From the NCBI RefSeq assembly GCF_057098645.1, contig NZ_CM169472.1: DNA of 64,000 nucleotides; one strand, written 5' to 3'. The translations under genes and the position numbers were made by a program. Of the stretch, positions 1 to 2,211 are shown piece by piece (position 1 is the stretch's first letter; each line of letters begins with the position of its first letter). The notes below the pieces were generated by a model. It searched no databases. It was given only the letters and a program-made list of their open reading frames with translations, and was not told the DNA's origin.

Positions 1-46
1 ACCAAAAAATCACTAAAAGTGCTCTTTATTGGGGATGGATTTGCCC

Positions 47-952
47 CTATATTTCCAGACATCTGTTATCACTTAACCCATTACAAGCCCGCTGCCGCAG
101 ATATTCCCGTGGCGAGCGATAACCCAGCGCACTATGCGGATGCCATTCGTTATAATGCTCGAACGCCTCTGCAAGGTTCTTTGCTGCCGTTAACCCGTCT
201 GGTTTGGGCATGATACTGATGTAGTCACGCTTTATCGTTTTCACGAAGCTCTCTGCTATTCCGTTACTCTCCGGACTCCGCACCGCCGTGTTCTTCGGTT
301 CAAGTCCCAACATCCGGGCGAACTGGCGTGTTTCATTAGCCCGGTAGCATGAACCATTATCCGTCAGCCACTCCACTGGAGACGACGGAAGATCGTTGCC
401 GAAGCGGCGTTCCACCGCTCCCAGCATGACGTCCTGTACTGTTTCACTGTTGAAGCCGCCGGTAGTCACCGCCCAGTGCAGTGCCTCACGATCACAGCAG
501 TCCAGCGCGAACGTGACACGCAGTCTCTCTCCGTTATCACAGCAGAACTCGAACCCGTCAGAGCACCATCGCTGATTGCTTTCTTTCACGGCCACTCTGC
601 CTGTATGTGCCCGTTTCGATGGCGGTACAGCAGGTTTTCGCTCAAGCAACAGCGCATTCTGGCGCATGATCCGGTAAACACGTTTGGCATTGATCGCAGG
701 CATACCATCAAGTTCTGCCTGTCTGCGAAGCAGCGCCCATACCCGACGATAACCATACGTGGGCAGCTCTCCGATAACATGGTGTATACGGAGAAGCACA
801 TCCGTATCATCAGTGTGACGACTGCGGCGGCCATCCATCCAGTCATCGGTTCGTCTGAGAATGACGTGCAACTGCGCACGCGACACCCGGAGACAACGGC
901 TGACTAAGCTTACTCCCCATCCCCGGGCAATAAGGGCGCGTGCGCTATCCAC
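47..952 (-). CDS. insD: IS2 transposase OrfB (InsD), DDE integrase-type catalytic domain
   Basis: 301-aa ORF recognised as IS3-family OrfB; overlaps insC as expected for a -1 frameshift OrfAB arrangement. Confidence 0.9.
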
Positions 953-1275
953 TTTTTTGCCCGTCCATATTCAACGGCTTCTTTGAGGAGTTCATTTTCC
1001 ATCGTTTTCTTGCCGAGCAGGCGCTGGAGTTCTTTAATCTGCTTCATGGCGGCAGCAAGTTCAGAGGCAGGAACAACCTGTTCTCCGGCGGCCACAGCAG
1101 TAAGACTTCCTTCCTGGTATTGCTTACGCCAGAGAAATAACTGGCTGGCTGCTACACCATGTTGCCGGGCAACGAGGGAGACCGTCATCCCCGGTTCAAA
1201 GCTCTGCTGAACAATTGCGATCTTTTCCTGTGTGGTACGCCGTCTGCGTTTCTCCGGCCCTAAGACATCAATCAT
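910..1275 (-). CDS. insC: IS2 transposase OrfA (InsC), helix-turn-helix DNA-binding subunit
   Basis: ORF 910..1320; likely start at internal Met ([24 protein letters not shown]...), giving 121 aa. Confidence 0.85.
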
Positions 1276-1341
1276 CTGTTCTCCAATGACTAGTCTAAAA
1301 ACTAGTATTAAGACTATCACTTATTTAAGTGATACTGGTTG

Positions 1342-1391
1342 TCTGGAGATTCAGGGGGCCAGTCTATCTGGAGATTCAGGGGGCCAGTCTA
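1342..1391. repeat. Perfect 2 x 25-bp tandem direct repeat of the IS2 terminal sequence (tctggagattcagggggccagtcta)
   Basis: Read directly: 1342-1366 and 1367-1391 are identical; the first copy is the IS2 end. Confidence 0.85.
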
Positions 1392-1754
1392 AGATGTCCT
1401 TACCCTGCGCCATCTGCAGCTTCTGCACCAGAACCGGTGAATCTCACTCAACAGGCTTCATTTCCCCTGACGCCAGCCTGAATACAGCTGGCGTTTTCAT
1501 TTATAAACAGAAAGGAAAACCGATAATAATGGAATGGACGCCCCGACCATGAAGCAACGGTAGGATATTACTGATAAACCTTCCAGTGGAGGTGCGTTAT
1601 GGCCGTTTTAACGATTAGCATTGACCTGACAAAAAATGAATTCCAAATCCACGGTCTGGGTAGGAACAGAAAAATCTAAGCTCAGAAAACGGATTAAAGT
1701 AAGCGTCAACGGAGCACCGTATTGACGCTTATTTATTGGTGAGAACTACGTTCC

Positions 1755-2111
1755 ATGGCAGGAGTTCGTCAACACGGTTGGAGGGCCATTCCGGCAGTAT
1801 GCTCAGAATATGGCGCAGATACGCTTCCGGATCGATACCGTTCAGACGGCAGGTGCCTGCTTTTCCGGCAACAAGCAGGAATCTCAGTGCTGAAGCAGGA
1901 ATTAGAGGTAAAAACGCCCTACCGGGCCATGAATCACCCGGTCATTGGAGTAGTAACCAAAGCAGATTTAGCCAGCATGGAACAAATATCTTTGGTGAAA
2001 AGTTGGTTACGGGAAGCTGGAGCGCACAACGTGTTAGTAACCAGTGCAGTTAATAACAATGGAGTTACAGAACTTTTTGCCTTGCTGCATACAGAAGAAG
2101 GCTGTTGTTAA
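1755..2111 (+). pseudogene. yoeF: EutP/PduV-family GTPase-like C-terminal fragment (yoeF-like remnant), probably non-functional
   Basis: 118-aa ORF whose C-terminal half (VIGVVTKADLASMEQISLVKSWLREAGAH...) resembles EutP/PduV GTPase C-termini; no P-loop N-terminus in frame; position next to yeeX matches the K-12 yoeF remnant as I recall it. Confidence 0.45.
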
Positions 2112-2211
2112 TTTCGATTGGTTCTCAGATGAGAATGATGACGGTGATACACAGATAAGAATCAATGAGCAATGAGGGTTGCCGGGCAACCCTCATTGAA
2201 TAAAACGGGAA

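What the first reader, a model, noticed from the sequence alone, without database searches (positions are those of the whole stretch)
1..1400. IS2 lacking a target-site duplication and carrying a 25-bp tandem copy of its terminus
IS2 normally leaves 5-bp direct repeats, but the flanks here (gggga on the left, tctgg or agatg on the right) do not match, suggesting an adjacent deletion or rearrangement. The outer 25 bp of the IS2 end are duplicated in tandem at 1342-1366 and 1367-1391, which is unusual and could be a scar of abortive or circle-junction transposition, or an assembly artefact.
Basis: seen in the sequence. Interest (0 to 1): 0.5.

Follow-up and report, generated by a model that had tools for sequence, protein, structure and literature searches.

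The report
IS2 with a 25-bp left-end tail
An ordinary, intact IS2 insertion sequence sits at a deletion joint in an E. coli genomic island and carries an extra copy of its outermost 25 bases, a small scar also found at other IS2 copies in unrelated strains, most likely left when one IS2 end was joined into the end of another IS2.

Summary
Both observations are confirmed. Window 36-1366 is an intact 1331-bp IS2, differing from K-12 IS2A at 4 of 1241 compared bases. Positions 1367-1391 exactly repeat the outer 25 bp of its left end (IRL). The flanks do not form a target-site duplication. The left flank comes from a glutamine amidotransferase gene that lies 5.5-33 kb upstream in the same island in other strains, so IS2 marks a deletion joint.

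The tail is probably not an assembly artefact, nor a native feature of IS2. The same 25-bp tail occurs once per genome in 4 of 5426 complete E. coli genomes (3 loci) and in one draft genome, on IS2 backbones about 4% apart. In two loci a 5-bp duplication brackets IS2 plus tail. At one locus, another strain has the identical IS2 at the identical site without the tail. In the draft genome the tail differs from the adjacent IRL by one base. No equivalent duplication exists at the right end. Tails of 51 and 54 bp also exist.

Best explanation (inferred): an IS2 circle or dimer junction integrated into positions L21-25 of a resident IS2 left end, and the redundant copy was then lost. This is a modestly interesting variant of known inverted-repeat targeting.

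The parts
1..35 (+). Left flank: bases about 10-44 of a glutamine amidotransferase gene of the island. The rest of the gene and the downstream island DNA are missing.
   Evidence: A 35/35 match lies inside the annotated glutamine amidotransferase CDS in about 1500 E. coli genomes. Its position in 300709 and SK1144 is given.
36..1366 (-). Complete IS2, 1331 bp, with its genes on the minus strand.
   Evidence: It differs from K-12 IS2A at 4 of 1241 compared bases. It differs at 6 of 1331 from another annotated IS2. Annotated hits are called 'IS3-like element IS2 family transposase'.
36..76 (.). IRR, the 41-bp right inverted repeat, whose tip reads TGGATTTGCCCC...
   Evidence: Sequence read. It is one arm of inverted repeat I1. 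The 41/42-bp definition of the ends is from PMC3299598.
47..952 (-). orfB reading frame, 301 codons, intact.
   Evidence: the ORF listing.
952..958 (-). A6G slippery site for the programmed -1 frameshift that makes OrfAB.
   Evidence: AAAAAAG lies at IS2 coordinate 409. The role of this site is described in PMC3299598.
910..1275 (-). orfA, 121 aa, intact.
   Evidence: Translation; ORF listed.
1325..1366 (.). IRL, the 42-bp left inverted repeat, complete. L1 is at 1366 and L25 at 1342. L32 is G here and A in K-12.
1342..1346 (.). TCTGG (L25-L21). Its copy at 1367-1371 is the inferred 5-bp target of the incoming IS2 junction.
   Evidence: This is an inference from the structure: a complete IS2 tip (1366) is followed directly by L25->L1.
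1367..1391 (.). The tail: a second copy of the outer 25 bp of IRL (L25->L1). It is interpreted as the remnant of the left end of a second, resident IS2.
   Evidence: The same tail occurs at four other loci.
1392..1552 (+). Right flank: the 3' remnant of a DUF957-family pseudogene at the right end of the CP4-44-like island. It is followed by the yoeF-like EutP/PduV gene, tmaR, yeeA, sbmC, dacD and sbcB.
   Evidence: 100% match to many genomes from window 1391/1392 onward. Annotation. The uninterrupted sequence is shown.

Best explanation
The element is a normal, potentially active IS2 followed by a 25-bp remnant (L25->L1) of the left end of a second IS2. Shown: the tail is real sequence, recurs at independent loci and on different IS2 backbones, arose or was lost in place, and does not spread with the element. 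Inferred mechanism: a reactive IRL-IRR junction was cleaved at both tips. This junction belonged either to a free IS2 minicircle or to a chromosomal (IS2)2 tandem dimer. It integrated, with the usual 5-bp stagger, into positions L21-L25 (TCTGG) of the left end of a resident IS2 in the same orientation. This joined the incoming IRL tip (...GTCTA-3') directly to L25 of the resident end. The redundant IS2 copy was then lost. Loss could be by homologous recombination between the two direct 1.3-kb copies. Alternatively it happened in the same step, if the junction and the target were in one molecule (a 'dimer dissolution' type deletion). What remains is one full IS2 plus the 25-bp tail, still bracketed by the resident copy's flanks. 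In this window the two flanks come from sites 5.5-33 kb apart in the same island. The same activity, or plain recombination between two IS2 copies, therefore also deleted the intervening island DNA, which explains the missing target-site duplication. The outer 25-mer lacks most of the transposase-binding domain (about L14-L42). Transposase should therefore use the inner, complete IRL and emit ordinary 1331-bp circles. The tail is thus a dead-end scar, which explains why each genome has only one.
For: 1. Structure. A complete IS2 tip at 1366 is followed immediately by L25->L1 and then by unrelated flank.

2. Recurrence. The exact duplication junction occurs in 4 of 5426 complete E. coli genomes, one place per genome although these genomes carry 14-32 IS2 left ends. 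The three loci are ecpD, a ydfO-like DUF1398 gene, and an AAA-domain gene. A fifth locus is in draft GCA_030511535.1.

3. Backbones. The tail-bearing IS2 bodies differ from the window's IS2 at 54-57 of 1331 positions, and from each other by up to 21. The tail is therefore not a marker of one IS2 lineage.

4. Target-site duplications. AAAAC (ecpD) and ATAGT (ydfO-like) bracket IS2 plus tail, as expected if the tail belongs to the original resident insertion.

5. Polymorphism in place. Strain 300709 has an IS2 with 0/1331 differences at the same ydfO-like site, with the same ATAGT duplication and near-identical flanks, but no tail.

6. Arguments against an artefact or replication slippage. The draft-genome tail differs from its adjacent IRL by one base. 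No 25-bp duplication of the IRR tip exists in any of the 5426 genomes. There is no microhomology between the repeat boundaries and any of the four different flanks.

7. Other tail lengths. Tails of 54 and 51 nt exist at other loci (L019 and L020), as expected from integration at varying positions in the left end.

8. Literature. IRL tips acquire a 3'-OH only in step II, at the minicircle junction. IRL is recipient-only in step I, and the transposase-binding domain lies inside the tip. L25 is a predicted curvature maximum, and IS2 is reported to insert at or near bent DNA (PMC3299598). (IS2)2 dimers, inverted-repeat targeting and dimer dissolution are described for IS30 and IS911 (PMC9333248).

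9. Deletion joint.
Against: No unresolved intermediate was found in 5426 complete genomes. Such an intermediate would be an IS2 interrupted at L21 by a second IS2, with the junction ...GGTTGTCTGG|TGGATTTGCC.

The direction of the ydfO-like polymorphism (gain versus loss of the tail) is not established.

Whether L21-25 is a true hot spot is not shown. I searched complete genomes only for the 25-bp length, and the length-agnostic protein route gave one case each of 25, 51, 54 and 131 nt.

The S. sonnei case has a 4-nt non-IS2 filler (AAAA) that this model does not predict.

No reads were available for the window itself.

Nothing was found in plasmids, GTDB representatives or JGI metagenomes.
Confidence: 0.62

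Rival explanations
1. A 1356-bp IS2 isoform carries the duplication natively and transposes with it, using the outer tip as its end. The tail-less copy at the ydfO-like site lost the repeat by slippage. The different backbones arose by recombination between IS2 copies.
For: Target-site duplications bracket the extended element at two loci. The tail is identical, or differs by one base, at five loci. IS2 copies are visibly mosaic.
Against: There is one tail-bearing copy per genome, even in genomes with 14-32 IS2 left ends. The tail sits on backbones 4% apart. An identical IS2 without the tail occupies the same site. The outer 25-mer lacks most of the transposase-binding domain defined for IRL (PMC3299598), so circle formation should occur at the inner tip. 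Tails of 51 and 54 nt exist as well. None was found on 72,556 plasmids.
Confidence: 0.1
2. Assembly or finishing artefact. An untrimmed overlap was left when a repeat contig ending at the IS2 tip was joined to a unique contig that begins with the last k bases of the repeat.
For: That process would create exactly a tandem copy of the terminal bases ending at the IS boundary, once per mis-joined repeat. The ydfO-like polymorphism and the single copy per genome fit it equally well. No reads were available.
Against: The same 25-nt length appears in assemblies from at least five unrelated projects and in two sister isolates. The draft-genome tail differs from the adjacent copy by one base. There are no such duplications at the IRR tip in 5426 genomes, although an overlap artefact should affect both ends. 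There is no other exact tandem duplication in the window. The lengths 25, 51 and 54 do not correspond to one overlap convention.
Confidence: 0.08
3. Transposase-independent tandem duplication (replication slippage or template switching) at the IS2 end, recurring because of local DNA structure.
For: Short tandem duplications are common replication errors. Ghosal and Saedler's mini-insertions IS2-6 and IS2-7 (recalled from memory, not checked here) showed replication-type rearrangements near an IS2 end.
Against: The duplicated unit ends exactly at the IS2 terminus next to four different flanks, with no microhomology at either boundary. The 51- and 54-nt tails also end exactly at the tip. A boundary defined by the transposon tip points to transposase chemistry.
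Confidence: 0.07

Closest known systems
IS2 (IS3 family), canonical 1331-bp element such as IS2A of E. coli K-12
   Same: It has the same length, the same 41/42-bp ends, orfA/orfB with the A6G frameshift site, and 99.7% identity.
   Different: It has no 5-bp target-site duplication, and an extra L25->L1 copy follows the left end.
Inverted-repeat targeting and 'dimer dissolution' by IR-IR junctions of copy-out-paste-in insertion sequences (IS30; targeted insertion of IS911), and (IS2)2 dimers
   Same: A reactive IRL-IRR junction reacts with an inverted repeat of a resident copy of the same IS. The reaction is orientation-specific and can remove one element from a dimer (PMC9333248).
   Different: In IS30 and IS911 the insertion is described as occurring next to the targeted repeat, regenerating a junction. 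Here the inferred strand transfer is 20-25 bp inside IRL (or about 50 bp inside in two other cases) and leaves a stable, inert tail. None of this has been shown experimentally for IS2.
IS-mediated adjacent deletion, or recombination between two directly repeated IS copies
   Same: A single IS lies between two formerly distant sequences and has no target-site duplication.
   Different: Those processes alone do not create a terminal partial duplication.
IS2 mini-insertions IS2-6 and IS2-7 (Ghosal and Saedler, late 1970s; from memory, not verified here)
   Same: They are small sequence additions, derived from IS2's own sequence, near an IS2 end.
   Different: As I recall, those are 54-108-bp inverted copies inside the element, selected for promoter activity. 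Here the addition is a direct copy of the outermost 25 bp, outside the element, and no promoter-like site is created.

Membership tests
IS2 (IS3 family insertion sequence) | About 1331 bp with high nucleotide identity to reference IS2 | tested here: met
   36-1366 is 1331 bp and differs at 4 of 1241 compared bases from K-12 IS2A.
IS2 (IS3 family insertion sequence) | Imperfect terminal inverted repeats: IRR 41 bp (TGGATTTGCC...) and IRL 42 bp (TAGACTGGCC...) | tested here: met
   The definition of the ends is from PMC3299598.
IS2 (IS3 family insertion sequence) | orfA and orfB overlapping in the -1 frame, with an A6G slippery site | tested here: met
   orfA of 121 aa is intact, the orfB frame of 301 codons is open, and AAAAAAG lies at 952-958.
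IS2 (IS3 family insertion sequence) | 5-bp direct target-site duplication flanking a simple insertion | tested here: not met
   GGGGA on the left versus TCTGG or AGATG on the right. This is explained by the deletion joint. It concerns the history of this copy, not the identity of the element.
Inverted-repeat-targeted junction integration / dimer dissolution (as in IS30 and IS911) | A strand-transfer junction between an IS tip and the inverted repeat of a resident copy of the same IS, in a fixed relative orientation | tested here: met
   The IRL tip is joined to L25 of a second IRL in direct orientation at five loci. Tips joined at L51 and L54 occur at two more.
Inverted-repeat-targeted junction integration / dimer dissolution (as in IS30 and IS911) | Dependence on transposase and on an IRL-IRR junction donor (minicircle or dimer) | not testable with these tools
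   This needs genetics or biochemistry. It is only inferred, from the fact that an IRL 3'-OH is produced solely at the junction (PMC3299598).
Inverted-repeat-targeted junction integration / dimer dissolution (as in IS30 and IS911) | Observable intermediate (IS inserted in or next to the repeat of another copy; a new IR-IR junction) | tested here: not met
   The exact ...GGTTGTCTGG|TGGATTTGCC... junction is absent from 5426 complete genomes. Such intermediates are expected to be unstable, so this weakens the reading but does not exclude it.
Transposition-competent extended IS2 isoform (1356 bp) | Multiple copies of the extended form per genome or lineage, each with its own target-site duplication | tested here: not met
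   There is one place per genome in all four genomes, and a tail-less identical copy occupies the same site in another strain.

The most novel reading that the evidence does not exclude
IS2 junctions (minicircle or (IS2)2 dimer) have a specific self-targeting site inside the element's own left end. The main site is L21-25, next to the predicted L25 bend and about 1.5 helical turns from the OrfA operator (L39-48). Secondary sites lie at L47-54, on the other side of that operator. Natural genomes would then preserve datable footprints of dimer dissolution or self-insertion. The 25-bp tail would be a genomic marker of past bursts of IS2 junction activity, here coupled to a 5.5-33 kb island deletion.
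Probability: 0.3. Interest if true: 0.5.

Novelty: new variant of a known kind. Interest (0 to 1): 0.33.

Why it matters
For genome annotation, the tail is a real, recurrent structure. It should not be 'corrected' as a misassembly, and it should not be mistaken for a new IS2 isoform.

For transposition biology, it offers natural-genome evidence that the reactive IS2 junction can attack the left end of another IS2 copy. Targeting of an element's own inverted repeats has been documented experimentally for IS30 and IS911, but I found no such report for IS2. The observation also suggests a defined position (L21-25) that can be tested directly in vitro.

For this locus, it shows that the CP4-44-like island has lost 5.5-33 kb through IS2 activity. 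In SK1144 the lost segment includes the toxin-antitoxin genes cbtA/cbeA and an iron-uptake cluster.

The effect on cell physiology is probably nil, so the overall importance is modest.

Tried and rejected
1. Unresolved intermediate. I searched for an IS2 interrupted at L21 by a second IS2. There was no exact hit in 5426 genomes, only chance flank similarities.

2. Other collections. The duplication junction was absent from PLSDB plasmids, from GTDB species representatives and from JGI metagenomes (searches's counterpart), even with a gapped pattern allowing tails of 19-49 nt.

3. Source genome. Neither the left nor the right junction of the window occurs in any complete E. coli genome, so no same-locus comparison was possible for the window itself.

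4. Hits H35-H44. These cover the whole 161-nt junction query at 82% identity. They turned out to be an IS2 inserted at a different position in a paralogous DUF957 gene, without duplication.

5. Hits H96-H111. These extend 10-16 nt past the IS2 tip but are chance flank similarity.

6. Chimeric junction ORFs. Those of the window and of the three complete-genome loci are not in the protein collection.

7. P0013 and P0035. Their '...GASLSGD...' tails are amino-acid coincidences only.

8. Promoter created by the duplication. No sigma-70-like site was found on either strand at 1150-1550, apart from an unrelated one at 1500-1527.

9. Same-site checks for the ecpD and AAA-gene insertions. Both are private to their strains.

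10. Slippage model. Rejected for lack of any microhomology at the repeat boundaries.

Full report
**What is in the sequence**

Window 36-1366 is a complete IS2 of 1331 bp, lying with its right inverted repeat (IRR, TGGATTTGCCCC...) at 36-76. Its left inverted repeat (IRL) is at 1325-1366 and ends ...GGGGGCCAGTCTA. It differs from IS2A of E. coli K-12 at 4 of 1241 compared positions. It has an intact 121-codon orfA (910-1275, minus strand), an open 301-codon orfB frame (47-952) and the A6G frameshift site (952-958). Directly after the IRL tip, positions 1367-1391 repeat the outer 25 bp of IRL exactly (TCTGGAGATTCAGGGGGCCAGTCTA). This is the only exact two-copy tandem duplication in the 64-kb window. 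The 5 bp to the left are GGGGA. To the right they are TCTGG or AGATG, depending on which copy is taken as the end. There is therefore no target-site duplication.

**Context and the missing target-site duplication**

From 1391/1392 rightwards the window matches thousands of E. coli genomes at 100%. This stretch is the 3' remnant of a DUF957-family pseudogene at the right end of a CP4-44-like island, followed by a yoeF-like EutP/PduV gene, tmaR, yeeA, sbmC, dacD and sbcB. In uninterrupted genomes the sequence reads ...caggcaagag|aagatgtcc..., which has nothing in common with the window's left flank. Window 1-35 instead matches the first bases of a glutamine amidotransferase gene in about 1500 genomes. 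In strains carrying both sites they lie on the same strand, 5.5 kb apart in 300709 and about 33 kb apart in SK1144. In SK1144 the intervening DNA holds a transporter, a phosphotriesterase-related gene, an iron-uptake cluster, dynamin-like and patatin-like genes, yeeS/yeeT, cbeA/cbtA and yeeW. IS2 therefore sits at a deletion joint. No complete E. coli genome has either junction.

**The tail is recurrent**

A 38-nt probe centred on the copy-to-copy junction cannot match a normal IS2 end. It hits exactly 4 of 5426 complete E. coli genomes, one place each, although those genomes hold 14-32 IS2 left ends. The loci are ecpD (sister isolates 33-6 and 58-3), a ydfO-like DUF1398 gene (WS4437A-1) and an AAA-domain gene (2017.17.03CC). 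A protein search with the ORF that reads out of the IS2 left end found a fifth locus, in draft assembly GCA_030511535.1. The IS2 bodies at these loci differ from the window's IS2 at 54-57 of 1331 positions, and from one another by up to 21. The tail is therefore not a lineage marker.

**The tail belongs to the locus, not to a mobile isoform**

At ecpD and at the ydfO-like gene, 5-bp duplications (AAAAC and ATAGT) bracket IS2 plus tail. Strain 300709 carries an IS2 with 0/1331 differences at exactly the same ydfO-like position. It has the same ATAGT duplication and one difference in 1.7 kb of flank, but no tail. The tail was therefore gained or lost in place. Together with one tail per genome and the different backbones, this argues against a 1356-bp isoform that transposes as such. 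It also fits published biochemistry. Transposase binds an inner domain of IRL, and in step I the right end is joined one base outside the tip of the bound IRL (PMC3299598). The outer 25-mer lacks most of that binding domain. A tail-bearing copy should therefore emit normal 1331-bp circles and leave the tail behind. That last step is an inference.

**Artefact and slippage**

An untrimmed k-mer overlap between a repeat contig and a unique contig would produce just such a terminal duplication, so I took this possibility seriously. Four results count against it.
- The same 25-nt length occurs in assemblies from unrelated projects.
- In the draft genome the tail differs from the adjacent IRL by one base (TCTGGGGATT versus TCTGGAGATT).
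- No 25-bp duplication of the IRR tip exists in any of the 5426 genomes, although an overlap artefact should affect both ends.
- The window has no other such duplication.

Slippage is unlikely because the repeat ends exactly at the transposon tip next to four different flanks, with no microhomology at either boundary. I could not inspect reads, so a residual artefact probability remains.

**Other tail lengths**

The same protein search found contigs in which a complete IS2 tip is followed by L54->L1 (GCA_016858685.1) and by L51->L1 (GCA_050286245.1). It also found a Shigella sonnei arrangement with AAAA plus L131->L1. All are in direct orientation and all end at L1. This is what integration of an IS2 into the left-end region of another IS2, followed by loss of the duplicated body, would leave.

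**Mechanism (inferred)**

The top-strand junction ...GTCTA|TCTGG... requires the 3'-OH of an IRL tip to be joined to L25 of another IRL. IRL is never cleaved in step I. Its 3'-OH is made only when an IRL-IRR junction is processed in step II (PMC3299598). The simplest pathway is therefore as follows.
- A minicircle junction, or the junction of a chromosomal (IS2)2 dimer, integrates with the usual 5-bp stagger into L21-L25 (TCTGG) of a resident IS2 in the same orientation.
- The redundant copy is then lost, either by homologous recombination between the two 1.3-kb direct repeats or in the same step as an intramolecular deletion.

That intramolecular deletion is the 'dimer dissolution' described for IS30. 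(IS2)2 dimers are listed among known intermediates in PMC9333248. Lewis et al. predicted a curvature maximum at L25 and proposed that IS2 prefers bent targets. This gives a possible reason for the position, but it is only a correlation.

In the window, a dimer formed between two IS2 copies 5.5-33 kb apart would at once explain the deletion, the missing target-site duplication and the tail. Plain recombination between two copies explains the deletion equally well.

**Weak points**

No unresolved intermediate was found. The polarity of the ydfO-like polymorphism is unknown. I searched complete genomes only for the 25-bp length, so I cannot claim that L21-25 is the dominant site. The AAAA filler in S. 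sonnei is unexplained.

**Comparison with known systems, and verdict**

The element is IS2 by every structural criterion except the target-site duplication, whose absence reflects the history of this copy. The tail resembles the products expected from inverted-repeat targeting and dimer dissolution in copy-out-paste-in insertion sequences. It differs in that the joint lies 20-25 bp inside the repeat rather than next to it, and I found no report of this for IS2 in the searchable literature. I rate it a new variant of a known kind. It is real, recurrent, mechanistically informative and testable, but small and probably without physiological consequence. Interest is 0.33.

Noticed in passing
L014-L017 (NZ_AGTD01000001.1, NZ_CP045190.1, NZ_CP125889.1, NZ_CP104117.1): Four independent IS2 insertions share the target ...(T)TCCAGAC with target-site duplication CAGAC. 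The heptamer TCCAGAC is the conserved block of IS2's own ends (IRR R19-25, IRL L20-26). Finding 7-8 identical flank bases at four loci looks more frequent than chance, which hints that IS2 prefers targets resembling its own inverted repeats. The probe used selected for this motif, so the enrichment is not quantified.
   Followed up: partly
L006 1841-1870 (NZ_CP195330.1, rhs/ybfB region): An IS2 with target-site duplication AGGAG lies next to host sequence (AGGAGATGGTCTATGGGGGCCAGG) that resembles the IRL tip region (GGAGAT...GGGGGCCAG). This is either chance or another case of insertion at an IRL-like target.
   Followed up: no
L021 1-210 (Shigella sonnei GCA_900160495.1; protein cluster of 33 members): A complete IS2 tip is followed by AAAA and then the outer 131 nt of an IS2 left end. 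The arrangement is apparently widespread in S. sonnei. The 4-nt filler does not derive from IS2 and is unexplained.
   Followed up: partly
L019 and L020 (GCA_016858685.1, GCA_050286245.1): IS2 left ends are followed by exact 54-nt and 51-nt direct copies of the terminus. The inferred target sites L50-54 and L47-51 abut the OrfA operator (L39-48, PMC3299598).
   Followed up: partly
window 1880-2111 and 1560-1700: A short EutP/PduV-family ORF (yoeF-like) and a remnant annotated 'transposase domain-containing' lie between the island end and tmaR. Both are conserved at 100% in many E. coli genomes.
   Followed up: no
window 2170-2198: A perfect 14-bp inverted repeat with a 1-nt loop (CAATGAGGGTTGCC/GGCAACCCTCATTG) lies between the convergent yoeF-like ORF and tmaR. 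It is probably a bidirectional terminator. Its core GTTGCCGGGCAAC also occurs inside IS2 at 1161-1173, presumably by chance.
   Followed up: no
L001 2501-2674 (NZ_CP010172.1 and nine other genomes): A divergent IS2 (41/1331 differences from the window's) is inserted in a paralogous DUF957 gene of another island, about 40 bp from the position equivalent to the window's right junction, without any duplication. The ends of these islands seem to be repeatedly hit by IS2.
   Followed up: partly
L005 (NZ_AP027829.1): The tail-bearing IS2 in strain 2017.17.03CC also lacks a target-site duplication (CCGGG versus TTTTC). Its body is a mosaic of two IS2 lineages between about IS2 positions 800 and 1250. 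Two of the four tail-bearing loci whose flanks are both known are thus associated with a further rearrangement.
   Followed up: partly
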